From NCBI GenBank assembly GCA_026770705.1, contig JANJGN010000163.1, positions 248,001 through 312,000 of the forward strand: 64,000 nucleotides of DNA, read 5' to 3'. The first letter of the stretch is position 1. Every line of letters begins with the position of its first letter. The stretch is from Isurus oxyrinchus (taxonomy: Eukaryota). A model generated the notes under the pieces. It searched no databases. It had not been told where the DNA came from and saw only the letters and a list, made by a program, of their open reading frames with translations. The translations under genes and the position numbers were made by a program. Shown here one piece after another: positions 27,001 through 58,060 of this stretch.

Positions 27001-30000
27001 ATTAGATATCAAACTTGGGATGTCAACCTGGAATTGACAATCTAATTAGATATCAGACTTGGGATGTCAATCTGGAATTGACAATCTAATTAGATATCAG
27101 ACTTGGGATGTCAACCTGGAATTGACAATCTAATTAGATATCAAACTTGGGATGTCAACCTGGAATTGACAATCTAATTAGATATCAGACTTGGGATGTC
27201 AACCTGGAATTTACAATCTAATTAGATATCAAACTTGGGATGTCAACCTAGAATTGACAATCTAATTAGATATCATACTTGGGATGTCAACCTGGAATTG
27301 ACAATCTAATTAGATATGAAACTTGGGATGTCAACCTGGAATTGACAATATAATTAGATATCAGACTTGGGATGTCAACCTGGAATTGACAATCTAATTA
27401 GATATCAGACTTGGGATGTCAACCAGGAATTGAGAATCTAATTAGATATCAGTCTTGGGATGTCAACTTTGAATTGACAATCTAATTAGATATCAAACTT
27501 GGGATGTCAACTTGGAATTGACGATCTAATTAGATATCAGACTTGGGATGTCAACCTGGAATTGACAATCTAATTAGATATCACACTTGGGATGTCAACC
27601 TGGATTTGACAATCTAATTAGATATCAGACTTGGGATGTCAACCTGGAATTGACAATCTAATTAGATATCAGACTTGGGATGTCAACCTGGAATTGACAA
27701 TCTCATTAGATATCAGACTTGGGATGTCAACCTGGAATTGACAATCTAATTAGATATCAGACTTGGGATGTCAACTTGGAATTGACAATCTAATTAGCTA
27801 TCAAACTTGGGATGTCAACCTGGAATTGACAATCTAATTAGATATCAGACTTGGGATGTCAATCTGGAATTGACAATCTAATTAGATATCAGACTTGGAG
27901 TGTCAACTTGGAATTGACAATCTAATTAGATATCACACTTGGGATGTCAACCTGGATTTGACAATCTAATTAGATATCAGACTTGGGATGTCAACCTGGA
28001 ATTGACAATCTCATTAGATATCAAACTTGGGATGTCAACCTGGAATTGACAATCTAATTAGATATCAGACTTGGGATGTCAACCTGGAATTGACAATCTA
28101 ATTAGATATCAGACTTGGGATGTCAACCAGGAATTGACAATCTAATTAGATATCAGACTTGGGATGTCAACCTGGAATTGACAATCTAATTAGATATCAG
28201 ACTTGGGATGTCAACCTGGAATTGACAATCTAATTAGATATCAAACTTGGGATGTCAACCTGGAATTGACGATCTAATTAGATATCAGACTTGGGATGTC
28301 AACCTGGAATTGACAATCTAATTAGATATCAGACTTGGGATGTCAACCTGGATTTGACAATCTAATTAGATATCAGACTTGGGATGTCAACCTGGAATTG
28401 ACAATCTCATTAGATATCAGACTTGGGATGTCAACCTGGAATTGACAATCTCATTAGATATCAGACTTGGGATGTCAACCTGGAATTGACAATCTAATTA
28501 GATATCAGACTTGGGATGTCAACTTGGAATTGACAATCTAATTAGATATCAAACTTGGGATGTCAACCTGGAATTGACAATCTAATTAGATATCAGACTT
28601 GGGATGTCAATCTGGAATTGACAATCTAATTAGATATCAAACTTGGGATGTCAACCTGGAATTGACAATCTAATTAGATATCAAACTTGGGATGTCAACT
28701 TGGAATTGACAATCTAATTAGATATCAGACTTGGGATGTCAACCTGGAATTGACAATCTAATTAGATATCAAAATTGGGATGTCAACCTAGAATTGACAT
28801 TCTAATTAGATATCAGACTTGGGATGTCAACCTGGAATTGACAATCTAATTAGACATCACACTTGGGATATCAACCTGGAATTGAAAATCTAATTAGATA
28901 TCAGACTTGGGATGTCAACCTGGAATTGACAATCTAATTAGATATCAGACTTGGGATGTCAACCTGGAATTGACAATCTCATTAGATATCAGACTTGGGA
29001 TGTCAACCTGGAATTGACAATCTAATTAGATATCAAACTTGGGATGTCAACCTGGAATTGACAATCTAATTAGATATCAGACTTGGGATGTCAACCTGGA
29101 ATTGACAATCTAATTAGATATCACACTTGGGATGTCAACCTGGATTTGACAATCTAATTAGATATCAGACTTGGGATGTCAACCTGGAATTGACAATCTA
29201 ATTAGATATCAGACTTGGGATGTCAACCTGGAATTGACAATCTCATTAGATATCAGACTTGGGATGTCAACCTGGAATTGACAATCTAATTAGATATCAG
29301 ACTTGGGATGTCAACTTGGAATTGACAATCTAATTAGATATCAAACTTGGGATGTCAACCTGGAATTGACAATCTAATTAGATATCAGACTTGGGATGTC
29401 AATCTGGAATTGACAATCTAATTAGATATCAGACTTGGGGTGTCAACTTGGAATTGACAATCTAATTAGATATCAAACTTGGGATGTCAACCTGGAATTG
29501 ACAATCTAATTCGATATCAAACTTGGGATGTCAACTTGGAATTGACAATCTAATTAGATATCAAACTTGGGATGTCAACCTTGAATTGACAATCTAATTA
29601 GATATCAAACTTGGGATGTCAACCTGGAATTGACAATCTAATTAGATATCAGACTTGGGATGTCAACCTGGAATTGACAATCTAATTAGATATCAAAATT
29701 GGGATGTCAACCTAGAATTGACAATCTAATTAGATATCAGACTTGGGATGTCAACCTGGAATTGACAATCTAATTAGATATCACTCTTGGGATATCAACC
29801 TGGAATTGACAATCTAATTAGATATCAGACTTGGGATGTCAACCTGGAATTGACAATCTAATTAGATATCAGACTTGGGATCTCAACCTGGAATTGACAA
29901 TCTAATTAGAAATCAGACTTGGGATGTCAACTTGGAATTGACAATCTAATTAGATATCACTCCTGGGATGTCAACCTGGATTTGACAATCTAATTAGATA

Positions 30001-33000
30001 TCAGACTTGGGATGTCAACTTGGAATTGACAATCTAATTAGATATCAGACTTGGGATGTCAACCTGGAATTGACAATCTAATTAGAAATCAGACTTGGGA
30101 TGTCGACTTGGAATTGACAATCGAATTAGATATCAGACTTGGGATGTCAATCTGGAATTGACAATCTAATTAGATATCAGACTTGGGATGTCAACCAGCT
30201 ATTGACAATCTAATTAGATATCAGACTTGGGATGTCAACTTGGAATTGACAATCTAATTAGCTATCAAACTTGGGATGTCAACCTGGAATTGACAATCTA
30301 ATTAGATATCAAACTTGGGATGTCAACTTGGAATTGACAATCTAATTAGATATCAGACTTGGGATGTCAACCTGGAATTGACAATCTAATTAGATATCAA
30401 AATTGGGATGTCAACCTAGAATTGACAATCTAATTAGATATCAGACTTGGGATGTCAACCTGGAATTGACAATCTAATTAGATATCACACTTGGGATATC
30501 AACCTGGAATTGACAATCTAATTAGATATCAGACTTGGGATTTCAACCTGGAATTGACAATCTAATTAGATATCAGACTTGGGATGTCAACCTGGAATTG
30601 ACAATCTCATTAGATATCAGACTTGGGATGTCAACCTGGAATTGACAATCTAATTAGATATCAGACTTGGGATGTCAACCTGGAATTGACAATCTAATTA
30701 GATATCAGACTTGGGATGTCAACTTGGAATTGACAATCTAATTAGATATCAGACTTGGCATGTCAACCTGGAATTGACAATCTAATTAGAAGTCAGACTT
30801 GGGATGTCAACTTGGAATTGACAATCTCATTAGATATCAGACTTGGGATGTCAACCTGGAATTGACAATCTAATTAGATATCAGACTTGGGATGTCAACT
30901 TGGAAGTGACAATCTAATTAGATATCAGACTTGGGATGTCAACCTGGAATTGACAATCTAATTAGATATCAGACTTGGGATGTCAACTTGGAATTGACAA
31001 TCTAATTAGATATCACACTTGGGATGTCAACCTGGATTTGACAATCTAATTAGATATCAGACTTGGGATGTCAACCTGGAATTGACAATCTAATTAGATA
31101 TCAGACTTGGGATGTCAACCTGGAATTGACAATCTAATTAGATATCAGAATTGGGATGTCAACCTGGAATTGACAATCTAATTAGAAATCAGACTTGGGA
31201 TGTCGACTTGGAATTGACAATCTAATTAGATATCAGACTTGGGATGTCAATCTGGAATTGACAATCTAATTAGATATCAGACTTGGGATGTCAACCTGCT
31301 ATTGAAAATCTAATTAGATATCAGACTTGGGATGTCAACTTGGAATTGACAATCTAATTAGATATCAAACTTGGGATGTCAACCTGGAATTGACAATCTA
31401 ATTAGATATCAAACTTGGGATGTCAACTTGGAATTGACAATCTAATTAGATATCAGACTTGGGATGTCAACCTAGAATTGACAATCTAATTAGATATCAC
31501 ACTTGGGATGTCAACCTGGATTTGACAATCTAATTAGATATCAGACTTGGGATGTCAACTTGGAATTGACAATCTAATTAGATATCACACTTGGGATGTC
31601 AACCTGGATTTGACAATCTAATTAGATATCAGACTTGGGATGTCAACCTGGAATTGACAATCTAATTAGATATCAAACTTGGGATGTCAACCTGGAATTG
31701 ACAATCTAATTAAATATCAGACTTGGGATGTTAACCTGGAATTGACAATATAATTAGATATCACACTTGGGATGTCAACCTGGATTTGACAATCTAATTA
31801 GATATCAGACTTGGGATGTCAACCTGGAATTGACAATCTAATTAGATATCAGACTTGGGATGTCAACCTGGAATTGACAATCTCATTAGATATCAGACTT
31901 GGGATGTCAACCTGGAATTGACAATCTAATTAGATATCAGACTTGGGATGTCAACTTGGAATTGACAATCTAATTAGATATCAAACTTGGGATGTCAACC
32001 TGGAAATGACAATCTAATTAGATATCAGACTTGGGATGTCAATCTGGAATTGACAATCTAATTAGATATCAGACTTGGGGTGTCAACTTGGAATTGACAA
32101 TCTAATTAGATATCAAACTTGGGATGTCAACCTGGAATTGACAATCTAATTAGATATCAAACTTGGGATGTCAACTTGGAATTGACAATCTAATTAGATA
32201 TCAAACTTGGGCTGTCAACCTGGAATTGACAATCTAATTAGATATCAAACTTGGGATGTCAACCTGGAATTGACAATCTAATTAGATATCAGACTTGGGA
32301 TGTCAACCTGGAATTGACAATCTAATTAGATATCAAAATTGGGATGTCAACCTAGAATTGACAATCTAATTAGATATCAGACTTGGGATGTCAACCTGGA
32401 ATTGACAATCTAATTAGATATCAGACTTGGGATATCAACCTGGAATTGACAATCTAATTAGATATCAGACTTGGGATGTCAACCTGGAATTGACAATCTA
32501 ATTAGATATCAGACTTGGGATGTCAACCTAGAATTGACAATCTCATTAGATATCAGACTTGGGATGTCAACCTGGAATTGACAATCTAATTAGATATCAG
32601 ACTTGGGATGTCAACCTGGAATTGACAATCTAATTAGATATCAGACTTGGGATGTCAACTTGGAATTGACAATCTAATTAGATATCAGACTTGGCATGTC
32701 AACCTGGAATTGACAATCTAATTAGAAATCAGACTTGGGATGTCAACTTGGAATTGACAATCTAATTAGATATCAGACTTGGGATGTCAACCTGGAATTG
32801 ACAATCTAATTAGATATCAGACTTGGGATGTCAACTTGGAATTGACAATCTAATTAGATATCAGACTTGGGATGTCAACCTGGAATTGACAATCTAATTA
32901 GATATCAGACTTGGGATGTCAACTTGGAATTGACAATCTAATTAGATATCACACTTGGGATGTCAACCTGGATTTGACAATCTAATTAGATATCAGACTT

Positions 33001-36000
33001 GGGATGTCAACTTGGAATTGACAATCTAATTAGATATCAGACTTGGGATGTCAACCTGGAATTGACAATCTAATTAGAAATCAGACTTGGGATGTCGACT
33101 TGGAATTGACAATCTAATTAGATATCAGACTTGGGATGTCAATCTGGAATTGACAATCTAATTAGATATCAGACTTGGGATGTCAACCTGCTATTGACAA
33201 TCTAATTAGATATCAGACTTGGGATGTCAAGTTGGAATTGACAATCTAATTAGATATCAAACTTGGGATGTCAACCTGGAATTGACAATCTAATTAGATA
33301 TCAAAATTGGGATGTCAACTTGGAATTGACAATCTAATTAGATATCAGACTTGGGATGTCAACCTGGAATTGACAATCTAATTAGATATCAAACTTGGGA
33401 TGTCAACCTGGAATTGACAATCTAATTAGACATCAGACTTGGGATGTCAACCTGGAATTGACAATCTAATTAGATATCAGACTTGGGATGTCAACCGGGA
33501 ATTGACAATCTAATTAGATATCAAACTTGGGATGTCAACCTAGAATTGACAATCTAATTAGATATCAGACTTGGGATGTCAATCTAGAATTGACAATCTA
33601 ATTAGATAACAGACTTGGGATGTCAACCTGGAATTGACAATCTAATTAGATATCACACTTGGGATGTCAACCTGGATTTGACAATCTAATTAGATATCAG
33701 ACTTGGGATGTCAACCTGGAATTGACAATCTAATTAGATATCAGACTTGGGATGTCAACCTGGAATTGACAATCTCATTAGATATCAGACTTGGGATGTC
33801 AACCTGGAATTGACAATCTAATTAGATATCAGACTTGGGATGTCAACCTGGAATTGACAATCTAATTAGATATCAGACTTGGGATGTCAACCTGGAACTG
33901 ACAATCTAATTAGATATCAGACTTGGGATGTCAACCTGGAATTGACAATCTAATTAGATATCAGACTTGGGATGTCAACCTGGAATTGACAATCTAATTA
34001 GATATCAAACTTGGGATGTCAACCTGGAATTGACGATCTAATTAGATAACAGACTTGGGATGTCAACCTGGAATTGACAATCTAATTAGATGTCACACTT
34101 GGGATGTCAACCTGGATTTGACAATCTAATTAGATATCAGACTTGGGATGTCAACCTGGAATTGACAATCTAATTAGATATCAAAATTGGGATGTCAACC
34201 TAGAATTGACAATCTAATTAGATATCAGACTTGGGATGTCAACCTGGAATTGACAATCTAATTAGATATCACTCTTGGGATATCAACCTGGAATTGACAA
34301 TCTAATTAGATATCAGACTTGGGATGTCAACCTGGAATTGACAATCTAATTAGATATCAGACTTGGGATCTCAACCTGGAATTGACAATCTAATTAGAAA
34401 TCAGACTTGGGATGTCAACTTGGAATTGACAATCTAATTAGATATCAGACTTGGGATGTCAATGTGGAATTGACAATCTAATTAGATATCAGACTTGGGA
34501 TGTCAACTTGGAATTGACAATCTAATTAGATATCAGACTTGGGATGTCAACCTGGAATTGACAATCTAATTAGATATCAGACTTGGGATGTCAACTTGGA
34601 ATTGACAAACTAATTAGATATCACTCCTGGGATGTCAACCTGGATTTGACAATCTAATTAGATATCAGACTTGGGATGTCAACTTGGAATTGACAATCTA
34701 ATTAGATATCAGACTTGGGATGTCAACCTGGAATTGACAATCTAATTAGAAATCAGACTTGGGATGTCGACTTGGAATTGACAATCGAATTAGATATCAG
34801 ACTTGGGATGTCAATCTGGAATTGACAATCTAATTAGATATCAGACTTGGGATGTCAACCAGCTATTGACAATCTAATTAGATATCAGACTTGGGATGTC
34901 AACTTGGAATTGACAATCTAATTAGATATCAAACTTGGGATGTCAACCTGGAATTGACAATCTAATTAGATATCAAACTTGGGATGTCAACTTGGAATTG
35001 ACAATCTAATTAGATATCAGACTTGGGATGTCAACCTGGAATTGACAATCTAATTAGATATCAAAATTGGGATGTCAACCTAGAATTGACAATCTAATTA
35101 GATATCAGACTTGGGAAGTCAACCTGGAATTGACAATCTAATTAGATATCACACTTGGGATATCAACCTGGAATTGACAATCTAATTAGATATCAGACTT
35201 GGGATTTCAACCTGGAATTGACAATCTAATTAGATATCAGACTTGGGATGTCAACCTGGAATTGACAATCTCATTAGATATCAGACTTGGGATGTCAACC
35301 TGGAATTGACAATCTAATTAGATATCAGACTTGGGATGTCAACCTGGAATTGACAATCTAATTAGATATCAGACTTGGGATGTCAACTTGGAATTGACAA
35401 TCTAATTAGATATCAGACTTGGCATGTCAACCTGGAATTGACAATCTAATTAGAAGTCAGACTTGGGATGTCAACTTGGAATTGACAATCTCATTAGATA
35501 TCAGACTTGGGATGTCAACCTGGAATTGACAATCTAATTAGATATCAGACTTGGGATGTCAACTTGGAAGTGACAATCTAATTAGATATCAGACTTGGGA
35601 TGTCAACCTGGAATTGACAATCTTATTAGATATCAGACTTGGGATGTCAACTTGGAATTGACAATCTAATTAGATATCACACTTGGGATGTCAACCTGGA
35701 TTTGACAATCTAATTAGATATCAGACTTGGGATGTCAACCTGGAATTGACAATCTAATTAGATATCAGACTTGGGATGTCAACCTGGAATTGACAATCTA
35801 ATTAGATATCAGAATTGGGATGTCAACCTGGAATTGACAATCTAATTAGAAATCAGACTTGGGATGTCGACTTGGAATTGACAATCTAATTAGATATCAG
35901 ACTTGGGATGTCAATCTGGAATTGACAATCTAATTAGATATCAGACTTGGGATGTCAACCTGCTATTGAAAATCTAATTAGATATCAGACTTGGGATGTC

Positions 36001-39000
36001 AACCTGGAATTGACAATCTAATTAGATATCAGACTTGGGATGTCAACTTGGAATTGACAATCTAATTAGATATCAAACTTGGGATGTCAACCTGGAATTG
36101 ACAATCTAATTAGATATCAAACTTGGGATGTCAAGTTGGAATTGACAATCTAATTAGATATCAGACTTGGGATGTCAACCTAGAATTGACAATCTAATTA
36201 GATATCACACTTGGGATGTCAACCTGGATTTGACAATCTAATTAGATATCAGACTTGGGATGTCAACTTGGAATTGACAATCTAATTAGATATCACACTT
36301 GGGATGTCAACCTGGATTTGACAATCTAATTAGATATCAGACTTGGGATGTCAACCTGGAATTGACAATCTAATTAGATATCAAACTTGGGATGTCAACC
36401 TGGAATTGACAATCTAATTAAATATCAGACTTGGGATGTTAACCTGGAATTGACAATATAATTAGATATCACACTTGGGATGTCAACCTGGATTTGACAA
36501 TCTAATTAGATATCAGACTTGGGATGTCAACCTGGAATTGACAATCTAATTAGATATCAGACTTGGGATGTCAACCTGGAATTGACAATCTCATTAGATA
36601 TCAGACTTGGGATGTCAACCTGGAATTGACAATCTAATTAGATATCAGACTTGGGATGTCAACTTGGAATTGACAATCTAATTAGATATCAAACTTGGGA
36701 TGTCAACCTGGAAATGACAATCTAATTAGATATCAGACTTGGGATGTCAATCTGGAATTGACAATCTAATTAGATATCAGACTTGGGGTGTCAACTTGGA
36801 ATTGACAATCTAATTAGATATCAAACTTGGGATGTCAACCTGGAATTGACAATCTAATTAGATATCAAACTTGGGATGTCAACTTGGAATTGACAATCTA
36901 ATTAGATATCAAACTTGGGCTGTCAACCTGGAATTGACAATCTAATTAGATATCAAACTTGGGATGTCAACCTGGAATTGACAATCTAATTAGATATCAG
37001 ACTTGGGATGTCAACCTGGAATTGACAATCTAATTAGATATCAAAATTGGGATGTCAACCTAGAATTGACAATCTAATTAGATATCAGACTTGGGATGTC
37101 AACCTGGAATTGACAATCTAATTAGATATCAGACTTGGGATATCAACCTGGAATTGACAATCTAATTAGATATCAGACTTGGGATGTCAACCTGGAATTG
37201 ACAATCTAATTAGATATCAGACTTGGGATGTCAACCTGGAATTGACAATCTCATTAGATATCAGACTTGGGATGTCAACCTGGAATTGACAATCTAATTA
37301 GATATCAGACTTGGGATGTCAACCTGGAATTGACAATCTAATTAGATATCAGACTTGGGATGTCAACTTGGAATTGACAATCTAATTAGATATCAGACTT
37401 GGCATGTCAACCTGGAATTGACAATCTAATTAGAAATCAGACTTGGGATGTCAACTTGGAATTGACAATCTAATTAGATATCAGACTTGGGATGTCAACC
37501 TGGAATTGACAATCTAATTAGATATCAGACTTGGGATGTCAACTTGGAATTGACAATCTAATTAGATATCAGACTTGGGATGTCAACCTGGAATTGACAA
37601 TCTAATTAGATATCAGACTTGGGATGTCAACTTGGAATTGACAATCTAATTAGATATCACACTTGGGATGTCAACCTGGATTTGACAATCTAATTAGATA
37701 TCAGACTTGGGATGTCAACTTGGAATTGACAATCTAATTAGATATCAGACTTGGGATGTCAACCTGGAATTGACAATCTAATTAGAAATCAGACTTGGGA
37801 TGTCGACTTGGAATTGACAATCTAATTAGATATCAGACTTGGGATGTCAATCTGGAATTGACAATCTAATTAGATATCAGACTTGGGATGTCAACCTGCT
37901 ATTGACAATCTAATTAGATATCAGACTTGGGATGTCAAGTTGGAATTGACAATCTAATTAGATATCAAACTTGGGATGTCAACCTGGAATTGACAATCTA
38001 ATTAGATATCAAAATTGGGATGTCAACTTGGAATTGACAATCTAATTAGATATCAGACTTGGGATGTCAACCTGGAATTGACAATCTAATTAGATATCAA
38101 ACTTGGGATGTCAACCTGGAATTGACAATCTAATTAGATATCAGACTTGGGATGTCAACCTGGAATTGACAATCTAATTAGATATCAGACTTGGGATGTC
38201 AAGCTGGAATTGACAATCTAATTAGATATCAAACTTGGGATGTCAACCTAGAATTGACAATCTAATTAGATATCAGACTTGGGATGTCAACCTAGAATTG
38301 ACAATCTAATTAGATAACAGACTTGGGATGTCAACCTGGAATTGACAATCTAATTAGATAACACACTTGGGATGTCAACCTGGATTTGACAATCTAATTA
38401 GATATCAGACTTGGGATGTCAACCTGGAATTGACAATCTAATTAGATATCAGACTTGGGATGTCAACCTGGAATTGACAATCTCATTAGATATCAGACTT
38501 GGGATGTCAACCTGGAATTGACAATCTAATTAGATATCAGACTTGGGATGTCAACCTGGAATTGACAATCTAATTAGATATCAGACTTGGGATGTCAACC
38601 TGGAATTGACAATCTAATTAGATATCAGACTTGGGATGTCAACCTGGAATTGACAATCTAATTAGATATCAGACTTGGGATGTCAACCTGGAATTGACAA
38701 TCTAATTAGATATCAAACTTGGGATGTCAACCTGGAATTGACGATCTAATTAGATATCAGACTTGGGATGTCAACCTGGAATTGACAATCTAATTAGATG
38801 TCACACTTGGGATGTCAACCTGGATTTGACAATCTAATTAGATATCAGACTTGGGATGTCAACCTGGAATTGACAATCTAATTAGATATCAGATTTGGGA
38901 TGTCAACCTGGAATTGACAATCTCATTAGATATCAGACTTGGGATGTCAACCTGGAATTGACAATCTAATTAGATATCACACTTGGGATGTCAACTTGGA

Positions 39001-42000
39001 ATTGACAATCTAATTAGATATCAAACTTTGGATGTCAACCTGGAATTGACAATCAAATTAGATATCAGACTTGGGATGTCAATCTGGAATTGACAATCTC
39101 ATTAGATATCAGACTTGGAGTGTCAACTTGGAATTGACAATCTAATTAGATATCACACTTGGGATGTCAACCTGGATTTGACAATCTAATTAGATATCAG
39201 ACTTGGGATGTCAACCTGGAATTGACAATCTAATTAGATATCAAACTTGGGATGTCAACCTGGAATTGACAGTCTAATTAGATATCAGACTTGGGATGTC
39301 AACCTGGAATTGACAATCTAATTAGATATCAGACTTGGGATGTCAACCTGGAATTGACAATCTAATTAGATATCAGACTTGGGATGTCAACCTGGAATTG
39401 ACAATCTAATTAGATATCAGACTTGGGATGTCAACCTGGAATTGACAATCTAATTAGATATCAAACTTGGGATGTCAACCTGGAATTGACGATCTAATTA
39501 GATATCAGACTTGGGATGTCAACCTGGAATTGACAATCTAATTAGATATCACACTTGGGATGTCAACCTGGATTTGACAATCTAATTCGATATCAGACTT
39601 GGGATGTCAACCTGGAATTGACAATCTCATTAGATATCAGACTTGGGATGTCAACCTGGAATTGACAATCTAATTAGATATCAGACTTGGGATGTCACCC
39701 TGGAATTGACAATCTCATTAGATATCAGACTTGGGATGTCAACCTGGAATTGACAATCTAATTAGATATCAGACTTGGGATGTCAACTTGGAATTGACAA
39801 TCTAATTAGATATCAAACTTGGGATGTCAACCTGGAATTGACAATCTAATTAGATATCAGACTTGGGATGTCAATCTGGAATTGACAATCTAATTAGATA
39901 TCAGACTTGGGATGTCAACCTGGAATTGACAATCTAATTAGATATCAAACTTGGGATGTCAACCTGGAATTGACAATCTAATTAGATATCAGACTTGGGA
40001 TGTCAACCTGGAATTTACAATCTAATTAGATATCAAACTTGGGATGTCAACCTAGAATTGACAATCTAATTAGATATCATACTTGGGATGTCAACCTGGA
40101 ATTGACAATCTAATTAGATATGAAACTTGGGATGTCAACCTGGAATTGACAATCTAATTAGATATCAGACTTGGGATGTCAACCTGGAATTGACAATCTA
40201 ATTAGATATCAGACTTGGGATGTCAACCTGGAATTGAGAATCTAATTAGATATCAGTCTTGGGATGTCAACTTTGAATTGACAATCTAATTAGATATCAA
40301 ACTTGGGATGTCAACCTGGAATTGACGATCTAATTAGATATCAGACTTGGGATGTCAACCTGGAATTGACAATCTAATTAGATATCACACTTGGGATGTC
40401 AACCTGGATTTGACAATCTAATTAGATATCAGACTTGGGATGTCAACCTGGAATTGACAATCTAATTAGATATCAGACTTGGGATGTCAACCTGGAATTG
40501 ACAATCTCATTAGATATCAGACTTGGGAAGTCAACCTGGAATTGACAATCTAATTAGATATCAGACTTGGGATGTCAACTTGGAATTGACAATCTAATTA
40601 GCTATCAAACTTGGGATGTCAACCTGGAATTGACAATCTAATTAGATATCAGACTTGGGATGTCAATCTGGAATTGACAATCTAATTAGATATCAGACTT
40701 GGAGTGTCAACTTGGAATTGACAATCTAATTAGATATCACACTTGGGATGTCAACCTGGATTTGACAATCTAATTAGATATCAGACTTGGGATGTCAACC
40801 TGGAATTGACAATCTCATTAGATATCAAACTTGGGATGTCAACCTGGAATTGACAATCTAATTAGATATCAGACTTGGGATGTCAACCTGGAATTGACAA
40901 TCTAATTAGATATCAGACTTGGGATGTCAACCAGGAATTGACAATCTAATTAGATATCAGACTTGGGATGTCAACCTGGAATTGACAATCTAATTAGATA
41001 TCAGACTTGGGATGTCAACCTGGAATTGACAATCTAATTAGATATCAAACTTGGGATGTCAACCTGGAATTGACAATCTAATTAGATATCAAACTTGGGA
41101 TGTCAACCTGGAATTGACGATCTAATTAGATATCAGACTTGGGATGTCAACCTGGAATTGACAATCTAATTAGATATCAGACTTGGGATGTCAACCTGGA
41201 TTTGACAATCTAATTAGATATCAGACTTGGGATGTCAACCTGGAATTGACAATCTCATTAGATATCAGACTTGGGATGTCAACCTGGAATTGACAATCTC
41301 ATTAGATATCAGACTTGGGATGTCAACCTGGAATTGACAATCTAATTAGATATCAGACTTGGGATGTCAACTTGGAATTGACAATCTAATTAGATATCAA
41401 ACTTGGGATGTCAACCTGGAATTGACAATCTAATTAGATATCAGACTTGGGATGTCAATCTGGAATTGACAATCTAATTAGATATCAGACTTGGGGTGTC
41501 AACTTGGAATTGACAATCTAATTAGATATCAAACTTGGGATGTCAACCTGGAATTGACAATCTAATTACATATCAAACTTGGGATGTCAACTTGGAATTG
41601 ACAATCTAAGTAGATATCAGACTTGGGATGTCAACCTGGAATTGACAATCTAATTAGATATCAAACTTGGGATGTCAACCTCGAATTGACAATCTAATTA
41701 GATATCAGACTTGGGATGTCAACCTGGAATTGACAATCTAGTTAGATATCAAACTTGGGATGTCAACCTAGAATTGACAATCTAATTAGATATCAGACTT
41801 GGGATGTCAACCTGGAATTGACAATCTAATTAGATATCAAACTTGGGATGTCAACCTGGAATTGACAATCTAATTAGATATCAGACTTGGGATGTCAACC
41901 TGGAATTGACAATCTAATTAGATATCAGACTTGGGATGTCAACCTGGAATTGAGAATCTAATTAGATATCAGTCTTGGGATGTCAACTTTGAATTGACAA

Positions 42001-42269
42001 TCTAATTAGATATCAAACTTGGGATGTCAACCTGGAATTGACGATCTAATTAGATATCAGACTTGGGATGTCAACCTGGAATTGACAATCTAATTAGATA
42101 TCAGACTTGGGATGTCAACCTGGAATTGACAATCTAATTAGATATCAGACTTGGGATGTCAACCTGGAATTGACAATCTAATTAGATATCAGACTTGGGA
42201 TGTCAACCTGTAATTGACAATCTAATTAGATATCACACTTGGGATGTCAACCTGGAATTGACAATCTAA
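1..42269. repeat. 44-bp tandem satellite array (~960 monomers; starts before the window)
   Basis: The monomer GGGATGTCAACCTGGAATTGACAATCTAATTAGATATCAGACTT repeats head-to-tail. Phase is kept throughout: positions 1, 661, 1321 ... 42241 (multiples of 660 = 15x44) all start at the same monomer position. Only scattered substitutions are seen, and the ORF track has no ORFs here. Confidence 0.99.
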
Positions 42270-42498
42270 CGATGACTATGAATCCAATATCGATTGTCGT
42301 AAAACCCCATCTGCCTCACCAATGTCCCTTGAGGGAGGGAAATCTGCTGTCCTTACCCCGGTCTGGCCTACATGTGACTCCAGACCCACAGCAATGTGGT
42401 TAACTGTTAGAAATGCTCTCTGAACAAGGGCGGTTATGGATGGGTAAGAAATGCTGGCCTAGCCAGTGACGCCCACATCCCATGAATGAATAGGAAAA
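42250..42498 (+). mobile_element. 5'-truncated shark SINE (SacSINE1/Deu-SINE-like)
   Basis: The sequence GGAAATCTGCTGTCCTTACCCCGGTCTGGCCTACATGTGACTCCAGACCCACAGCAATGTGG...TGCTGGCCTAGCCAGTGACGCCCACATCCCATGAATGAAT resembles the elasmobranch SacSINE1 body and tail as I recall them. The tRNA-derived head is absent. Family name is from memory, not from a search. Confidence 0.75.
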
Positions 42499-42519
42499 GG
42501 ATTACTCACTGGCCACGCC

Positions 42520-43050
42520 TGCATCTGCTGTTCATTCCTGGTCGCCACTGGGGAGGGCGGGCTCAGGTTCCGCTTCTAGGTGGTAGGGACCGTGCGATTC
42601 GCAAGTGTGACTGAAGGAGCCTTGGTGGATTGTTTCTATGCATCTTGTATATTGTAGTGACTGTGTCCGTGTGTTGAATGTTGAAGGCGGCGGGTGCACT
42701 CACCATCCTGTTGGTCCGCTTTATCCTTCATTGCGCAGAGCTCCTGGAGAATAATTGGGATCTGCACTTATCGGTGCAAATGGAGTGTGAGCCATCACAG
42801 TGATGCCTTTTGTCTTGTAGTTGGAGGACAGGCTTTTTGAGTGCAGAATCCCCAGGCCCTGACCTGCTCCTGTAGCAGCAGCATTTACACGGATAGGCCA
42901 GTCCAGTTTCTGGTGAACGGTAACCCCTAGGGCGTTAGTGGCAGGGTTTAACTGATGTTCCTGTTGTTGAATATCTAGGTGCAATGGTTAGATTCTGTCT
43001 GTTGCAGACCATGGCCCATTGCCTGGGACATGTGTGTGCATGTGTCACCA
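42520..43050 (-). mobile_element. Decayed CR1/L2-group LINE ORF2 C-terminal fragment
   Basis: Minus ORF 42721-42984 (ALGVTVHQKLDWPIRVNAAATGAGQGLGILH...SLSSNYK) resembles the post-RT segment LGVTIDQKLNWxxHINxVAxRAGQRLGIL...SLSTIYK of CR1/L2-type LINEs. Confidence 0.7.
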
Positions 43051-43435: not shown

Positions 43436-43736
43436 ACACTTGCAGGAGCGCCTCCTTACCCAGTGGGGGGTCCGGCTGTCTGTTGTACAGGGGCAGACGG
43501 CGGAGATGCACTGTTACCAGAACGACACTGAGCATATCAACATGTCCTGGTACTGTCAGCACCCCGGGGCAGGGCTGCAGCTCATGGTCACCTCGGTGGG
43601 TACCTCAGAGCCCAGGCCTGAAGAGGGGTTCAAGGAGAGGTTTGAAGTGACGAGACACAACACCAAGTGGTGCAGCCTGAAAATACTGAGCGTGGAGCTG
43701 ACTGACACTGCGGTTTATTACTGCGCTGCTGGTGAA
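43436..43736 (+). pseudogene. TRBV: TRBV pseudogene V1 (chimeric; 1-bp deletion near exon start; no leader found)
   Basis: A polypyrimidine acceptor ...TTCCTCCTCAG ends at 43435. The phase-1 frame reads DTCRSA, then shifts (GCC-TCCTTACC versus expected GCC CTC CTT ACC) and stops at 43648-43650. The V domain (..HCYQND..WYCQHPG..DTAVYYCAAGE) lies in the other frame (ORF 43440). No leader exon was recognised upstream. Confidence 0.85.
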
Positions 43737-43775
43737 CACAGAGACTCAAACAGGTGTAGATCTTGTTCAAAAATA
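43737..43775 (+). other. 23-RSS of V1 (CACAGAG-23-TCAAAAATA)
   Basis: Heptamer 43737-43743, 23-bp spacer, nonamer 43767-43775, directly after YYCAAGE. Confidence 0.88.
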
Positions 43776-49412: not shown

Positions 49413-50342
49413 ATGGGCTGGACAGTGAATCTCTCTGCACTGTTGCTGCTGCTGCTACCAGGTTACAATGAATATTTGTAAGGGGGAATGGGCTCCCTGT
49501 TGCTGAAGCGACAATTCATTCAGTTGGATCATTTGTAGAATTGGATATTGTTGAGCTCGGTGTTGCCAGTCATAGTGCGGAAGTTGCATTCTGCCAAAGT
49601 AACTGGGAACAATAGACGGGCGGGGAATATCTGCTGGACAAAGGGTTGAGGGAAAGGGGATAGGACTACATACAAATGCAAAGCCCCTTGGCAGCCGAGC
49701 TGGGGAGGTGAGCAGCCTCACTGAGCAGGAAGAGTCCGTCTCACTGGAGAGTTAAAGTGTGTGGGGCGCGGCGAACGCGGCTGAGTTAGCGGTGTGGGGT
49801 ATGGGAAGCTGCTGGGCAGGAGTATTGCACACAAATCTGCACCCAGGACAAGTATCTCCAGAGAGCGCCGCTACCACTGAGCTGGGGCGACACTGGGCAC
49901 CCAGACATTATGGTTCTGTTTCTGGGTGAAGGGAGCTGAGCGACCGAGAGCTGCGCTGTGAGATTCGACAATAGCTTTCTCCACATCCTGATGGTGCCAG
50001 TTCATTTCTGATCCGCTCTGTCTCTCACCTCCCTCCTCAGCCTCCTGCAGGAGCGCCCTGGTTTCCCAGTGGCCGAGCCGTCTGTCCGTTAGAGAGGGGG
50101 ACACGGTGGAGATGGGCTGTTACCAGAACGATACCAGCGAGACCGACATGTACTGGTATCGGCAGCACCCCGGAGCAGGGCTGCAGCTCATGGTCACCTC
50201 GGTGGGTACCTCAGAGCCCAGGCCTGAAGATGGTTTCAAGAAGAGGTTTAATGTGACCAGACCCGAGATTAAGTTGTTCAGCCTGAAAATACTGAGCGTG
50301 GAGCTGACTGACACTGCGGTTTATTACTGCGCTGCGAGTGAA
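49413..50342 (+). CDS. TRBV: TRBV gene segment V3 (type B); leader exon 49413-49461, V exon 50041-50342
   Basis: Leader MGWTVNLSALLLLLLP with phase-1 donor G|GTTACA and acceptor CCTCCTCAG| at 50040. It splices in frame to ASCRSALVSQWPSRLSVREGDTVEMGCYQNDTSETDMYWYRQHPGAGLQLMVTSVGTSEPRPEDGFKKRFNVTRPEIKLFSLKILSVELTDTAVYYCAASE. Both canonical Cys and WYRQ are present, and it resembles TRBV20/TRBV29. Confidence 0.92.
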
Positions 50343-50381
50343 CACAGAGACTCAAACTGCTGCCGGGCTGGGTCTAAAACC
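50343..50381 (+). other. 23-RSS of V3 (CACAGAG-23-TCTAAAACC)
   Basis: Heptamer 50343-50349, spacer 50350-50372, nonamer 50373-50381. Confidence 0.9.
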
Positions 50382-51442
50382 TTTAAATTAACCCTTTAAA
50401 GCGCATCACTCACCAAACTCCAACTTAAGCACTCTAATGCAACCCAAAGCTGCACTCCTACACTGACCAGTGTCTGGTTTTCCAAAAGAAAACTTACGAT
50501 TTGATAAAACAATCCTTTCCAACACTGCCTGAGTGACAATTCAAAATTGACAGCATCGCTTCAATACTTTTCAACGCAGTAGAAATATCCTGGGGTGAAT
50601 CGTGGACTCTTACAGGACAGAGTATTCATTTATTTCTATTGTGCCTCTTTGAATCGGCTCCATACTTCATTTCACTACTTATTTCCTCAAAGCGCCTCCG
50701 ATAAACCTTGTTCCAAGACATTGCCAAATATCTCCTCAAAGTTCCCATTCAATCTGCTTCCTGCATCATTTCAGACAATACAATCCAACTAATAATAGCT
50801 TCAATGAGATATAAGTACCATCCTTTTAATCTCCCCTGTTGTACGTTTGTGAATCACCTTTAGGGCTGTGCCCTCTGTTCCCCAAATACTATCAAAGTGA
50901 CCTGCTTCCCCTTATTTACCCCATCCAAACCGGACATCATTGTGAACAGACACATCCCGTCTATTCTAAGCATTCTCTGGCCAATGATGTCCGGCACCTT
51001 TCCTTCACTGCTGCTGGGACTGGTCTCTGAAGGAAATAACTGGGAACAGTGCTAATGGAGTCCTCCTGAGATGCCGTTGGAGAAATGAGGGGAGCTCCGA
51101 CAGGTTTAACAATCGCCTCAGGTGAGATATCTCTCCCTACGCTTCACATAGGCAATCGGTACGAATCTTTATACACAGCCCCCATCAGATGCAATGTCCT
51201 GCACCTTGCCAGACAACGCCATGTACTTATCATTCTGCTATCCACAGACAGGAAAAGGGGTGGCTGTTTGTCTCGGGTAAGAAACGGGCCAGTAAACACC
51301 TTGTGGGTGTTGCTGAAATGTTGTCGTCTCCACACCCCCAAACCCGAGAGGTGTGACAGCGGATTTGGAGCTGCAGTGTGTCTGTCTGAGAGCTGGGATG
51401 GAGCAGAAGGATTGACCCAGGGTGGTTCATGATTCCAGCACC

Positions 51443-52242
51443 ATGCTGCACAGTGCTTTCCTGTACCTCATGTTTCTGCTGCTCCCAGGTTACTTTTCAT
51501 CCTTTGTAGGCCAACCCTGGCCGCTCTAAACCTGCTTTTGGGGGGAAACTTCAATTCTTGGAGCATTAGAAGCTGCAGAAAGGCTTCGGTCAGTGAAGAG
51601 ATTGAGCAGGTTCCTTACTGACTGAAGCAGTGAGTGGCTGTGGTCTGGAGAATACATTGCATGAGAGGCTGGGGAAGCAGCTGCAACTTGTGCCCCACAC
51701 AAGGGACAGGGTAAATTTCCAAATGGGGTAATATTGCTCGGGCTGACGGTAAAGGGCACGGGAGTGGGGGTTTAATTGGAAATGGCCTCGCCAGAGATGG
51801 GCAGGCACGGTTCCCCTATCCAATTCTACGGATTCTAGTGGTTTAAAATGTACAGAACCGGCCCCATCACCAGAAAGTTGATGTTTGACCCGATGTGCCT
51901 GTGGTTTGTTTTTTAATGTAATAAAAGTGTTTCTCTGTAGCTGTCTGCAGGAGCGCTCTCATTACCCAGTGGCCCAAGAGATTGTCCGTGGGAAAAGGGG
52001 AGATGGTGGAGATGGGCTGTTACCAGAACGACAGCAGTGACAGCTCCATGTCCTGGTACCGTCAGCACCACCGGGCAGGGCTGCAGCTCATGGTCACCTC
52101 GCTGGGTACCTCAGAGCCCAGGCCTGAAGAGGGGTTCAAGGAGAGGTTTGAAGTGACGAGACACAACACCAAGTGGTGCAGCCTGAAAATACTGAGCGTG
52201 GAGCTGACTGACCCTACGGTTTATTACTGCGCTGCTGGTGAA
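51443..52242 (+). CDS. TRBV: TRBV gene segment V2 (type A); leader exon 51443-51488, V exon 51941-52242
   Basis: Leader MLHSAFLYLMFLLLP with G|GTTACT and acceptor TTCTCTGTAG| at 51940. It splices in frame to AVCRSALITQWPKRLSVGKGEMVEMGCYQNDSSDSSMSWYRQHHRAGLQLMVTSLGTSEPRPEEGFKERFEVTRHNTKWCSLKILSVELTDPTVYYCAAGE. The frame is open, but DPTVYYC and HHRAG are atypical. Confidence 0.88.
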
Positions 52243-52281
52243 CACAGAGACTCAAACAGGTGTAGATCTTGTTCAAAAACA
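52243..52281 (+). other. 23-RSS of V2 (CACAGAG-23-TCAAAAACA)
   Basis: Heptamer 52243-52249, spacer 52250-52272, nonamer 52273-52281. Confidence 0.9.
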
Positions 52282-52595
52282 TCCCCACTCTGTTCTACTG
52301 GGAGCTAAAACCTCTGTAAACTCCAGTAAGTGGTGGTGCTGCAACCACCTGGATATTGGTGACGATCTATGTGGTTTTTACTGCAACCTTCCCAGTGGAT
52401 AAAATGTCCCAAATCCTCTCAGTCTGACCTGAATGACAAGTCCAAACCTACCTCCCACAGCAAATCCTTTCCATAATGAAGACCAATAAAAACAAAGAGG
52501 CTGGAATAAGCGGCGGATTATACAGGGCAGCCCCCTCCCCCCGGCCTATCGCACCTATTTGAAACTGTTCTGAGGCTTCATCTCATTCCAGCAGT

Positions 52596-52671
52596 GCCTA
52601 ATCTGTGCTTTTCCAATGTTCCCACAGACACTGCGGCTTGTCCCTGCGCTGCTGGTGTTCACAGGGACTCG
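52596..52671 (+). pseudogene. Collapsed V-exon remnant, copy 2
   Basis: Same as 44090-44165: acceptor AG at 52626-52627, heptamer-like CACAGGG at 52660-52666. Confidence 0.65.
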
Positions 52672-52964
52672 GACATGAAACCAGGAGCCAGTCCTGATAG
52701 GGCTGTGAGCTGGTCAGCTCCAAATCTCCATGAAGAATCCATCATTAACCGCTCTCTCTCCTTTACCAAATTACCTCATTGTGAAATGGTAAAATCCAGC
52801 TGGCCAATCAAAAATAATATTAACAAATCCAACCAGAATAATAATCACCTTCCAAATGAGATATAAGCTGGCGCGTTAACACTTCAAATAAGAAGCGCAA
52901 GTCCTTTCGGGGAGGTTTGTGTGAAGCAAATCTTCATACACAGGCTGGAGGGAAACTAGCAAAC

Positions 52965-53170
52965 TCTCTCTCTCTCTCTACACCCCCCACTCCCCCACCC
53001 CCCACTGCCCCCAATACCCCCCCCCACCCCCTGTCCCCCCTACCCCCTCCAACCACTCACGCTCCCTCCCACTGCCCCCACTCACTCCCCCCATTCCCCC
53101 ACTCACTGCACCCTTCCCCCTCTCCCTGCCCCCTCCCCTTCTCCTTCCCCCCTCCTTCCACTCCCCCCTT
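52965..53170. repeat. (CT)n plus C-rich low-complexity tract, copy 2
   Basis: Shorter paralog of 44460-44712. Confidence 0.9.
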
Positions 53171-55453
53171 CCCGCTGACATGGGTGGTGCTGTTGTTGTC
53201 TGGCGCACTGACCTCTACCTCACAGAGGCTGAGCGTCAACTCGCAGACACTTCCTCCTACCTCTCCCTGGACCATGACCCCACCACTGAACATCAAGCCA
53301 TTGTTTCCAGGACTGTCACTGACCTCATCTCCTCTGGGGATCTTCCTCCCACAGCTTCTAACTTGATAGTCGCCCAACCTCGGACGGCCCGCTTCTATCT
53401 CCTACCCAAAATCCACAAACAGAACTGCCCCGGTAGACCGATCGTCTCAGCTTGCTCCTGCCCCACAGAACTCATCTCTCGTTATCTTGACTCCCTTCTC
53501 TCTCCCCTTGTCCAGTCCCTCCCCACCTACATCCGTGATTCCTCTGACACCTTACGTCACATCAACAATTTCCAGTTCCCTGGCCCCAACCGCTTCCTCT
53601 TCACCATGGACGTCCAATCCCTCTACACCTCCATCCCCCACCAGGATGGTCTGAGGGCCCTTAGCTTCTTCCTCGAACAGAGGCCCGAACAATCCCCATC
53701 CACCACTACTCTCCTCCGTCTGGCTGAACTTGTTCTCACACTGAACAATTTCTCCTTCAACTCCTCTCACATCCTCCAAATAAAAGGTGTGGCTATGGGT
53801 ACCCACATGGGCCCCAGCTATGCCTGTCTCTTTATGGGGTATGTGGAACATTCCTTGTTGCAGTCCTACTCCGGCCCCCTTCCACAACTTTTTCTCCGGT
53901 ACATCGATGATTACTTCGGTGCTGCTTCATGCTCTCGTCGGGACTTGGAAAAATTTATTAATTTTGCTTCCAATCTCCATCCCTCCATCATTTTCACGTG
54001 GTCCATCTCTGACACTTCCCTTCCCTTCCTTGACCTCTCTGTCTCAATCTCTGGTGATAGACTGTCCACCAATATCCATTAGAAACCCACCGACTCCCAC
54101 AGCTACCTCGACTACAGCTCCTCACACCCCGCTTCCTGTAAGGACTCCATCCCATTCTCCCAGTTCCTTCGCCTTCGTCGCATCTGTTCCGATGATGCTA
54201 CCTTCAAAAACAGTTCATCTGACATGTCCTCCTTCTTCCTTAACCGAGGTTTTCCACCCACGGTCGTTGACAGGGCCCTCAACCGTGTGCGGCCCATCTC
54301 TCGCACATCCGCCCTCACGCCTTCTCCTCCCTCCCAGAAACATGATAGGGTCCCCCTTGTCCTCACTTATCACCCCACCAGCCTCCGCATTCAAAGGATC
54401 ATCCTCCGCCATTTCCGCCAACTCCAGCATGATGCCACCACCAAACACATCTTCACTTTCACTCCCACGGTGGCATTCCGCAGGGATTGTTCCCTCCGGG
54501 ACACCCTGGTCCACTCCTCCATCACCCCCTACTCCTCAACCCCCTCCTATGGCACCACCCCATGCCCACACAAAAGATGTAACACCTGCCCCTTCACTTC
54601 CTCTCTCCTCACCGTCCAAGGGCCCAAACACTCCTTTCAAGTGAAGCAGCATTTCACTTGCATTTCCCCAACTTAGTCTACTGCATTCGTTGCTCCCAAT
54701 GTGGTCTCCTCTACATTGGAGAGACCAAACGTAAACTGGGCGACCGCTTTGCAGAACACCTGTGGTCTGTCCGCAAGAATGACCCAAACCTCCCTGTCGC
54801 TTGCCATTTTAACACTCCATCCTGCTCTCTTGCCCACATGTCTGTCCTTGGCTTACTGCATTGTTCCAATGAAGCCCAACGCAAACTGGAGGAACAACAC
54901 CTCATCTTCCGACTAGGCACCTTACAGCCTTCCGGACTGAATATTGAATTCAATAACTTTAGGTCGTGAGCTCCCCCCCCCATCCCCACCCCCTTTCTGT
55001 TTCCCCCTTTTTTTTCCCTATAAATTTTATAGATTTTTCTTTTCCCACCTATTTCCATTATTTTTAAATATTTTAAATCTTTTATGCTCCCTCCACCCCC
55101 ACTAGAGCTGTACCTTGAGTGCCCTACCATCCATTCTTAATTAGCACATTCGTTTAGATAATATCACCAACTTTAACTTTAACACCTATGTGTTCTATTG
55201 TACCATTGTCGCTGATATCTTTTGATGATCTGCTTCTATCACTGCTTGTTTGTCTACACAAGCACCTCTCTCTCTCTCTCCGCCCCCCCCCCCCACACAC
55301 ACACACCTTAAACCAGCTTATATTTCAACTCTTTCTTGGACTCGAAATCAAGTTCTGTCGAAGGGTCATGAGGACTCGAAATGTCAACTCTTTTCTTCTC
55401 CGCCGATGCTGCCAGACCTGCTGAGTTTTTCCAGGTAATTCTGTTCTTGTTTT
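53171..55453 (+). mobile_element. Penelope-like retroelement, paralog of 44713-46985
   Basis: It has the same 5' truncation point, the same TAG (54080-54082) and the same frameshift near 54665. RT is ORF 53180-54082 and GIY-YIG is ORF 54658-54969. It ends in ..GATGCTGCCAGACCTGCTGAGTTTTTCCAGGTAATTCTGTTCTTGTTTT. Confidence 0.92.
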
Positions 55454-56438
55454 TAACACGGGGACAGTGTTCAGTTCAAACTGTTTCATATCCCTTCTCA
55501 GTAATTCCATTCCCTCAAAGCGACAGGGAAATAATGTTCCATTCAAATCTCTTCTCAAAGTTCCCGCTGTATCTGCTTCCTGTAACCTCTTAATAACACA
55601 ATCAGTTAGAATTAAAAATCACCTGAATCTCCCCTGTCGGCCGTTTATGAATCCACATTAATCGGCGACCCCCGTTCCCTTAGATTATTGTCAAGGGGAA
55701 ACGCTTCAGTCCCAAATCTAACCATGGCCCTAATGTGGAACATATCTATCAGATCGGCACTCAGCTTGATCTGGCTGAATAATGGCTGTCCGTGTTTCCT
55801 CGCTGCTACTTATACTGTCGGGTAAGAGCAATAGCTTGTTATGGGACGTCAAAGTCAGTTCCCTGTGCAGAGAGCCTGAGCTGCCGAGTGGAGACATTAG
55901 ACCAACTCGAGAGGATTGGACAGGGTTTCCACATGAACTATCTCTCCACAGGCCACATGCGGCCAACTGGTTCCAATCTTTGCAACCAATCATCTGTAAC
56001 ACAATGCACATTGCCAGGCAGCCGGACCACCTGTATTGTTAACCCCACCCAGTGACCAGGCAGGAAAGAGTCATCTGCCTTGTTTGGAGGGACAATGGGG
56101 GAGGGGGTTTTCTCTGGACCTCCATGATATGCAGCCACTTCCACAGCCAAGCGAAAGGCGGGGCGACATTCAACAACCGAGGCAGGACCTTCCTAGGGCG
56201 CTTTGACTGGAACATTCCTTCCCAGTTAGGAACGGGCTATAATTGCTGGGCTGGGCCAGTGAAGGCCACATCCCGGGAACAAATAAGGAAACAAAAGCCC
56301 CTGAGTAAATTCCGGCCATGGATCCAATTTCCACATGGCAGTCAGAGCTGGATATTCATCCTTCTCACCTGGCCGGCTACGGAAGGGCCACCTGCTGTGC
56401 TTTGGTCAGCAAGGACCTGTCCTGTTGAGTGAGCTTCC

Positions 56439-56490
56439 AATGACATCACTTCCGCACGCAGCCATATCACGAGGCGCAGCGGCAGTATAA
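56439..56490 (+). promoter_or_regulatory. TRBV promoter (CRE-like decamer + ETS core + TATA-like), paralog upstream of V4
   Basis: AATGACATCA at 56439-56448, CACTTCC at 56447-56453, TATAA at 56486-56490. Confidence 0.7.
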
Positions 56491-56551
56491 CTCCAGTCTG
56501 TGAAAGCGGGCGAAGCTGCGAGTTTGAGAGAGCGTGTGAAAGTCCCGCATC

Positions 56552-57481: not shown

Positions 57482-57520
57482 CACAGCGACTCAAACTGCT
57501 GCCGGGCTGGGTCTAAAACC
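57482..57520 (+). other. 23-RSS of V4 (CACAGCG-23-TCTAAAACC)
   Basis: Heptamer 57482-57488, spacer 57489-57511, nonamer 57512-57520. Confidence 0.9.
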
Positions 57521-57959
57521 TTTAAATTAACCCTTTAAAGCGCATCACTCACCAAACTCCAACTAAAGCACTCTAATGCAACCCAAAGCTGCACTCCTAC
57601 ACTGACCAGTGTCCTGTGTTCCAAAAGAAAACTTACGATCGCATTAAGCAATCCTTGCCAACACTGCCTGAGTGACAATTCAAAATTGACAGCATCGCTT
57701 CAATACTTTTCAACGCAGTAGAAATATCCTGGGGTGAATCGTGGACTCTTACAGGACAGAATATTCATTTTTTGCCATCGTGCCTCCAAGTAGCTGCTTG
57801 TCTTTCTGAGAGAAGATAGAAAATCAAAGGATCATCTTCCCTCTTCGCTGAACTACCACACTCACCAAACTCAAACTGATGCCCTCTAATGCAGCCTAAA
57901 GCCACATCCAGTATAGACCAGCAAGCACAGCAGAAATCTTGCTTTTGTGCTGACGGAAT

Positions 57960-58060
57960 CCAGCTTCTGAAAACCTGTTGATGCAGCTTATCGAATTAAC
58001 TATCTGCAGCTGCAAGCACAGCCTGTAGAACTGCTGTTTAAAACTGGGCTAAAACTCAAC
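57960..58060 (+). pseudogene. Highly degenerate type-B V 3' end/RSS remnant
   Basis: CTGAAAACCTG..CTGCAGCTGCAAG CACAGCC TGTAGAACTGCTG..CTGGGCTAAAAC parallels CTGAAAATACTG..CTGCGCTGCGAGTGAA CACAGCG ACTCAAACTGCTG..CTGGGTCTAAAAC of V4. Confidence 0.4.

What the first reader, a model, noticed from the sequence alone, without database searches (positions are those of the whole stretch)
42200..42330. Satellite monomer appears to contain the 5' junction of the adjacent SINE
Seen: the last monomer ends ..CCTGGAATTGACAATCTAA and continues without spacer as CGATGACTATGAATCCAATATCGATTGTCGTAAAACCCCATCTG. From my recollection of the shark SacSINE1-type consensus, the segment just before GATGACCATGAAACCATTGTCGATTGTTGTAAAAACCCATCTG reads TCTGGAATTAAAAGTCTAAT. 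About 19 bp of the 44-bp monomer would therefore be SINE-derived. Inference: the array of more than 42 kb grew in place by amplifying a SINE/flank junction, and the founder element still sits at its edge.
Basis: partly seen in the sequence, partly recalled or inferred. Interest (0 to 1): 0.72.

Follow-up and report, generated by a model that had tools for sequence, protein, structure and literature searches.

The report
Shark satellite born at SINE edge
Almost half of each 44-base unit of this 88-kb shark repeat array is a piece of the jumping element sitting at its edge; the repeat occurs only at nine duplicated copies of one spot among immune-receptor gene segments, so it most likely began there, a clear new example of a known way for satellite DNA to arise.

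Summary
Confirmed, with corrections. The last 19-21 bp of the 44-bp monomer (42249/42251-42269) continue the adjacent SINE in register. Profile score is 17.6 bits, reached by 0 of 200,000 shuffles; published shark Zenon consensuses carry the same segment. The join lies inside the SINE (about position 121 of 360); the tRNA-like head is missing. The other ~23 bp are not detectably SINE.

The array is 87.6 kb (1,991 units). All 4,520 genome matches at up to 3 mismatches fall in nine arrays (10-2,374 units) with the same left flank, between V segments of a segmentally duplicated antigen-receptor cluster. So there was one birth site, later copied.

A related species has tandem units at the same junction but lacks 215 bp of the SINE body. 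No unamplified founder was found. A second individual carries about 530 units against 4,631 in the assembly.

Neighbouring 32- and 22-bp repeats in the same duplicated unit balloon in other copies, so giant expansion is regional, not SINE-specific. SINE-derived satellites with a trailing SINE are already described in reptiles; this is a new member.

The parts
1..42269 (+). 44-bp tandem array, right part (whole array G000:C163:202668-290269, 87,602 bp, 1,991 units, no length-variant unit)
42226..42248 (+). Non-SINE part of the last monomer: two junction bases (TT) plus 21 bp of presumed flank DNA
   Evidence: no significant SINE similarity on either strand; TT is absent from the first unit of all 9 arrays
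42249..42269 (+). SINE-derived part of the last monomer (family positions about 121-141; 16 of 21 identical)
42270..42289 (+). 20-bp SINE stretch that the related species also keeps next to its monomer; ends in a 4-bp repeat shared with the SINE's 3' boundary
   Evidence: joint 1476-1712 on L005
42290..42504 (+). SINE body and tail (215 bp), absent at this site in organism B. Zenon-like body to 42424, LINE-derived tail from 42425, A-rich end near 42500
42573..43036 (.). Old interspersed-repeat remnant (67-77% to dispersed copies, some of which lie in RT-coding LINEs); strand not determined
   Evidence: (query 84-547)
43440..43775 (+). Antigen-receptor V exon (open frame, V-set) with a 23-bp-spacer recombination signal; first V downstream of the array
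   Evidence: 61% to a shark Ig-like protein
50050..60035 (+). Four further V segments with 23-RSS (heptamers at 50343, 52243, 57482, 59995) in 93-98% identical tandem duplications

Best explanation
This is a locus-specific 44-bp repeat whose last 19-21 bases are an internal piece of the adjacent head-less shark SINE; it likely began as one small tandem duplication across the SINE's truncated left edge, was then likely carried to nine sites by segmental duplication of a V-gene unit, and probably ballooned to about 90-100 kb by repeated multi-kilobase block duplications. Steps: (1) inferred: a Zenon-derived SINE lacking its first ~120 bp sat in a spacer between two V segments. (2) Shown anatomy, inferred event: the array reads left flank-[42 bp]-(TT+42 bp)n-SINE at all eight complete sites, as expected from a single 42-bp duplication with two added bases. 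(3) Shown: the repeat exists only in nine copies of this unit. (4) Inferred: it predates the split from organism B, which likely lost the SINE body later by a deletion between 4-bp repeats. (5) Shown: 73% of this array lies in exact internal duplicates of 15 or more units; inferred: unequal exchange or break-induced copying rather than unit-by-unit slippage. (6) Inferred: neutral, region-wide instability, because the 32- and 22-bp repeats of the same unit balloon in other copies.
For: In-register homology with controls and published consensuses. Genome-wide confinement: 1,344 of 1,344 exact matches and 4,520 of 4,520 matches at up to 3 mismatches lie in nine arrays. The left flank has exactly 9 hits. 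Whole-number unit counts at 8 of 8 complete arrays, and GG instead of TT in 9 of 9 first units. Right flanks are 97.3-99.9% identical between the 8 complete sites. Block duplications of up to 88 units, none of 8 or more in 3 shuffles. Organism B contigs join the 20-bp SINE stub to the monomer and span tandem units. Per-unit copy numbers of the 32-, 22- and 44-bp repeats vary independently.
Against: No empty site or single-monomer founder was found in this genome or in organism B, so the flank origin of the left 21 bp and the first duplication are unobserved. The first 41 bp of SINE homology are more diverged (31 of 41) than the rest (181 of 203; Fisher p 0.04, and 0.025-0.135 across the 8 non-independent copies). 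That break coincides with organism B's breakpoint, as a later insertion would predict. No 5-10 bp direct repeat flanks the unit, unlike the usual slippage model. The joint was listed in 2 of 3 organism B runs.
Confidence: 0.78

Rival explanations
1. Two-step origin: the monomer came from an older 41-bp SINE stub, and the 215-bp SINE body now at the edge was inserted or recombined in later, in register, only in this lineage. Organism B would then show the pre-insertion state and the 4-bp repeat would be a target-site duplication.
For: Organism B lacks exactly 42290-42504. A 4-bp repeat bounds the segment, intact at both ends in 3 of 8 copies. The stub is more diverged than the body (p about 0.04).
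Against: It needs a new element to truncate exactly in register with an old fragment, whereas one microhomology deletion explains organism B. The first 21 columns are the family's variable part (mean conservation 0.79 against 0.92-0.95). The 20-bp stub alone is not significantly more diverged (p 0.08-0.16).
Confidence: 0.13
2. The whole 42-bp founder is SINE: a degenerate end of the head, or an inverted SINE piece. The repeat would then be an internal SINE duplication with no flank DNA in it.
For: A loose gapped alignment continues leftwards under the laxest scoring (2 of 300 shuffles at one of six settings). A 9-bp inverted match to the family consensus exists.
Against: The other five settings gave 19-300 of 300. 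Local alignment on both strands gave 370-2,623 of 3,000 shuffles as good. Ungapped log-odds fall to -22. No A or B box lies in the left flank I read.
Confidence: 0.06
3. Not exclusive with the best reading: this array and its 104-kb twin are two alleles assembled in false tandem, not two loci.
For: Right flanks differ at 9 of 8,731 bases. Monomer variants are collinear, with 140 variant types shared of 155 and 159. The neighbouring 32- and 22-bp repeats have identical lengths in both units. A second individual suggests about 6 units rather than 9.
Against: Left flanks align at 98.8% over 29.7 kb with 82 gaps. The V clusters after the two arrays differ in order and number. A very recent tandem duplication gives the same picture.
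Confidence: 0.35
4. A dispersed satellite from elsewhere landed beside the SINE and the match is chance.
For: None found.
Against: 0 of 200,000 shuffles and 0 of 234,717 positions reach the score; no monomer exists outside the nine sites.
Confidence: 0.02

Closest known systems
SINE-derived satellites (sSat1-3) of squamates, Vassetzky et al. 2023, PMC10702118 (parts 1-4 of 5 of the text read)
   Same: Tandem unit taken from part of a tRNA-type SINE; a terminal unit that runs on into the SINE up to its end; some units carry 14-44 nt of unknown origin; copy number differs between orthologous loci; single loci reach about 950 to over 1,200 units.
   Different: Shark, not reptile. Unit 44 bp (theirs about 70-290 nt) and less than half SINE. 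One ancestral site spread by segmental duplication, where major sSats occupy up to thousands of loci. Up to 2,374 units. Lies inside a V-gene cluster.
Minisatellites derived from Alu and B1 SINEs, and the Haber-Louis short-repeat model, as reviewed in PMC6947457 (passages read; the primary papers were not read)
   Same: A short unit born in or at a SINE and expanded as a variable-number repeat.
   Different: No 5-10 bp direct repeat flanks this unit; the junction has two added bases instead. Arrays reach satellite size.
Shark Zenon LINE 5' ends (two consensuses in Supplementary Table 2 of PMC13343379; first ~400 letters of two rows seen) and SacSINE1 (PMC5499810, passages)
   Same: The Zenon consensuses begin with the same tRNA-like head and contain the segment found in the monomer. 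SacSINE1 is described as tRNA-headed with a LINE-shared tail, as this family is.
   Different: This family is 360 bp and jumps from the Zenon-like body straight to the LINE tail. The copy here lacks the head. No SacSINE1 consensus could be seen, so identity with it is untested.

Membership tests
SINE-derived satellite (sSat type) | Repeat unit homologous to part of a SINE and shorter than it | tested here: met
   19-21 of 44 bp
SINE-derived satellite (sSat type) | Terminal unit continues into the SINE up to one terminus | tested here: met
   profile positions 147-398 at 42248-42502 and at 8 of 8 complete sites
SINE-derived satellite (sSat type) | At least four middle monomers in head-to-tail order | tested here: met
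   10-2,374 units
SINE-derived satellite (sSat type) | Subtelomeric preference (a tendency in the paper, not a strict criterion) | not testable with these tools
   C163 is a 1.12-Mb contig with no chromosome position
SacSINE1 (Deu-SINE) | tRNA-derived head with A and B boxes | tested here: inconclusive
   Family consensus has A-box-like and B-box-like motifs at 11 and 75 (recalled motifs; 9 and 13 of 22 members). ARAGORN and Rfam found no tRNA in 6 and 5 loci. This copy has no head.
SacSINE1 (Deu-SINE) | Deu domain and overall identity to the SacSINE1 consensus | not testable with these tools
   Supplement of PMC5499810 not readable; the name does not occur in the supplement searched
SacSINE1 (Deu-SINE) | 3' tail shared with a partner LINE | tested here: met
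   Family positions about 290-360 match 3' ends of LINE copies, one with a Pfam RVT_1 frame
Zenon-derived SINE (head/body plus tail) | 5' part matches Zenon LINE 5' end | tested here: met
   Two motifs, one from the junction segment, both found in two shark Zenon consensuses; read by eye, not aligned by a tool
Rearranging antigen-receptor V segment | V-set exon followed by heptamer-23-nonamer signal | tested here: met
T-cell receptor beta V (TRBV) | Linkage to D-J-C beta or named orthologue | not tested
   Resemblance is recalled. The only database relative was unnamed; PDB hits mix antibodies and TCRs.

The most novel reading that the evidence does not exclude
This duplicated V-gene unit is a satellite nursery: three unrelated minisatellites (32, 22 and 44 bp) flank one V segment, and each jumps 100-fold to 50-130 kb in different copies and individuals. 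A regional copying process would then turn any junction repeat into satellite within a species, and the 100-kb spacers would change which V segments a shark can rearrange.
Probability: 0.15. Interest if true: 0.72.

Novelty: new member of a known kind. Interest (0 to 1): 0.42.

Why it matters
Satellite birth sites are usually erased. Here both edges survive, and the same repeat is seen at 10, 11, 20, 49, 64, 94, 1,991 and 2,374 units in near-identical flanks, plus in a second individual and a related species. That is a ready series for measuring how a minisatellite becomes a satellite. It extends SINE-derived satellites from reptiles to sharks; the reptile paper left their wider range open. 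It also shows very large, probably polymorphic spacers inside an antigen-receptor V cluster. No function is shown, and the route itself is known.

Tried and rejected
Empty or single-monomer paralogue in this genome: none.

SINE origin of the left 21-23 bp, forward or inverted: not significant.

Hairpin-driven origin: the monomer folds back on itself and unit junctions form a 12-bp palindrome, but folding z-scores were -0.8 to -1.7 for four stretches and +0.6 for the fifth. A split-complement test gave 2 and 38 of 20,000 shuffles, but it was post hoc and the family consensus tail also scored 10 of 12. Kept only as a hint.

Regular higher-order repeat: no lag above 0.11.

Target-site duplications in 22 family members: longest shared word 0-10 bp, not convincing. 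The Fisher test used a slice 11 bases too short and was redone.

tRNA or Rfam hit in SINE heads: none.

A whole-contig BLAST timed out and was replaced by a k-mer map.

Summed Logan contig depths over the array were not used as copy numbers.

Literature searches (listings of titles and abstract openings only) showed no paper on this array or on SINE-derived satellites in sharks. Subscription journals, Repbase and Dfam are not covered, and the unread supplement of PMC5499810 bears on the SINE's name.

Full report
1. Observation. The array fills window 1-42269 with 960 whole 44-bp units, 292 of them identical to the consensus, and runs without spacer into a SINE at 42270. A genome search with 42270-42500 returned 8 near-identical copies (98-100%) and 32 dispersed family members (84-88%) among 40 scored of 3,854 candidates. 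I used the 22 dispersed members that came as loci. They were chosen without reference to their upstream bases. Their profile aligns 22 bases into the last monomer. The ungapped score peaks at 42249 with 17.55 bits; 0 of 200,000 shuffles, 0 of 234,717 non-array positions and none of the 43 other monomer phases reach it. Two published shark Zenon LINE consensuses contain the same segment just before the motif at the junction.

2. The element. The family is 360 bp, with A-box-like and B-box-like motifs in its head (recalled motifs) and a ~70-bp tail shared with LINE 3' ends; one such LINE copy encodes an RVT_1 domain. Read by eye, the body follows the Zenon 5' end to window 42424 and then switches to the tail. 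Earlier notes of this scan proposed such head-plus-tail SINEs; I checked that only in part. The copy here starts at family position about 121, so the head is missing and the junction is internal. The remaining 21 bp plus TT show no significant SINE similarity on either strand. SacSINE1 identity could not be tested.

3. Both edges. The array spans C163:202668-290269, 1,991 units. Its first unit lacks the two T bases, so the anatomy is flank-[42]-(TT+42)n-SINE. This holds at all 8 complete arrays, each a whole number of units with no length variant; all 9 first units start the same way. The TT completes a 12-bp palindrome across unit junctions. A fold-back origin is possible but not supported by folding energy, and the complementarity test was post hoc.

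4. Confinement. The genome holds 1,344 exact monomers: 1,334 on C163, 7 on C1134, 3 on C1481. At up to 3 mismatches it holds 4,520, again all on those stretches: 4,482 + 21 + 17. I read C163 from 48,001 to its end, all of C1134 and the first 2.7 kb of C1481. The nine arrays have 1,991, 2,374, 64, 20, 49, 94, 10, 11 and at least 18 units; the last is cut by a contig end. The left flank has exactly nine hits. Right flanks of the 8 complete sites are 97.3-99.9% identical. So one site was duplicated.

5. Context. The array lies about 0.75 kb after one V segment and 1.2 kb before the next; both are V-set exons with 23-bp-spacer signals. The best 56 of 150 scored matches to the downstream V lie on the same three contigs; the next are on C31 at 43% or so. 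The nearest database protein is from a shark, 61% identical and unnamed. A T-cell receptor beta identity is my recollection only.

6. Growth. The two giant arrays are collinear in their unit variants, with block gains and losses. 73% of this array lies in exact internal duplicates of 15 or more units, up to 88; three shuffles gave none of 8. No regular higher-order period exists. Their right flanks differ at 9 of 8,731 bases, so they are a very recent duplicate or two alleles in false tandem. In the same duplicated unit, the 32-, 22- and 44-bp repeats have these copy numbers in the six C163 units: 96/327/1,991; 96/327/2,374; 175/171/64; 2,233/5,855/20; 1,509/764/49; 86/137/94. Giant size therefore does not depend on the SINE junction.

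7. Other animals. Twenty runs hold part of the site: 4 of organism A and 16 of organism B, which shares about 30% of words. I laid 3 B runs and 1 further A run on the 10-unit copy. In 2 of the 3 B runs a contig skips the SINE body: it keeps 20 bp of SINE next to the monomer and joins the right flank, losing the equivalent of window 42290-42504 between 4-bp repeats. In one run that contig continues 23 bp into the monomer, and a 103-bp piece spans tandem units with 4 differences and 1 gap. So the repeat predates the A-B split (flanks about 3-7% apart) and no single-monomer founder was seen. Deletion in B is the simpler reading. Against it, the first 41 bp are more diverged than the rest (31 of 41 against 181 of 203, p 0.04). 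The second A individual (raw reads, 4% of the run) laid about 8,900 bases on the array, against 78,000 expected from the assembly, or 41,000 if the giants are alleles. That is about 530 units per haploid genome over about 6 unit copies. It rests on roughly 60 reads and a filtered tool, so it suggests, but does not prove, large variation between individuals.

8. Comparison and verdict. Vassetzky et al. 2023 (PMC10702118; parts 1-4 of 5 read) describe the same architecture in squamates, including extra bases of unknown origin and loci of over 1,200 units. SINE-born minisatellites are reviewed in PMC6947457 (passages). PMC5499810 and PMC3747384 were seen as passages; PMC13343379 as one reference-list passage and two supplement rows. 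My six searches listed no report of this array. It is a real, well-preserved new member of a known kind; its added value is the copy-number series and the V-cluster setting.

Noticed in passing
G000:C163:48001-115628 (L156-L162): A 56-bp array of at least 67.6 kb (about 1,208 units; left edge not read). The unit is a segment of a dispersed LINE (81-98% matches in 9 of 29 unrelated loci) and the array runs on into an RVT_1-coding LINE copy: a LINE-derived satellite with its source at the edge.
   Followed up: partly
G000:C163:116795-121679: An 87-bp array (about 56 units) next to that LINE; one weak match to a dispersed locus.
   Followed up: no
G000:C163 189819, 364148, 543222, 594809, 848630, 955072; two sites on C1134: A 32-bp repeat at 8 paralogous sites, 76 to 2,986 units. 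Its right edge abuts an old fragment of the same SINE family in at least 5 sites, but the profile extends only weakly into the unit (peak about 6 bits).
   Followed up: partly
G000:C163 193977 to 961889 (7 sites); 2 sites on C1134: A 22-bp repeat just upstream of the left V segment, 53 to 5,855 units (up to 129 kb); origin not examined.
   Followed up: no
G000:C163:1003128-1117539: A 36-bp GC-rich array of at least 114 kb running to the contig end.
   Followed up: no
C163, C1134, C1481 and C31:0.85-1.6 Mb: One V subfamily is amplified to at least 56 copies on three contigs, most with open frames and three with a stop; the more diverse V cluster lies on C31.
   Followed up: partly
window 61423-61708: A young 49-bp tandem repeat, 5.8 copies at 99% identity, inside the V cluster.
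   Followed up: no
L023:1956-2035: An 80-bp piece of 28S rRNA 5' end about 230 bp from a SINE copy.
   Followed up: no
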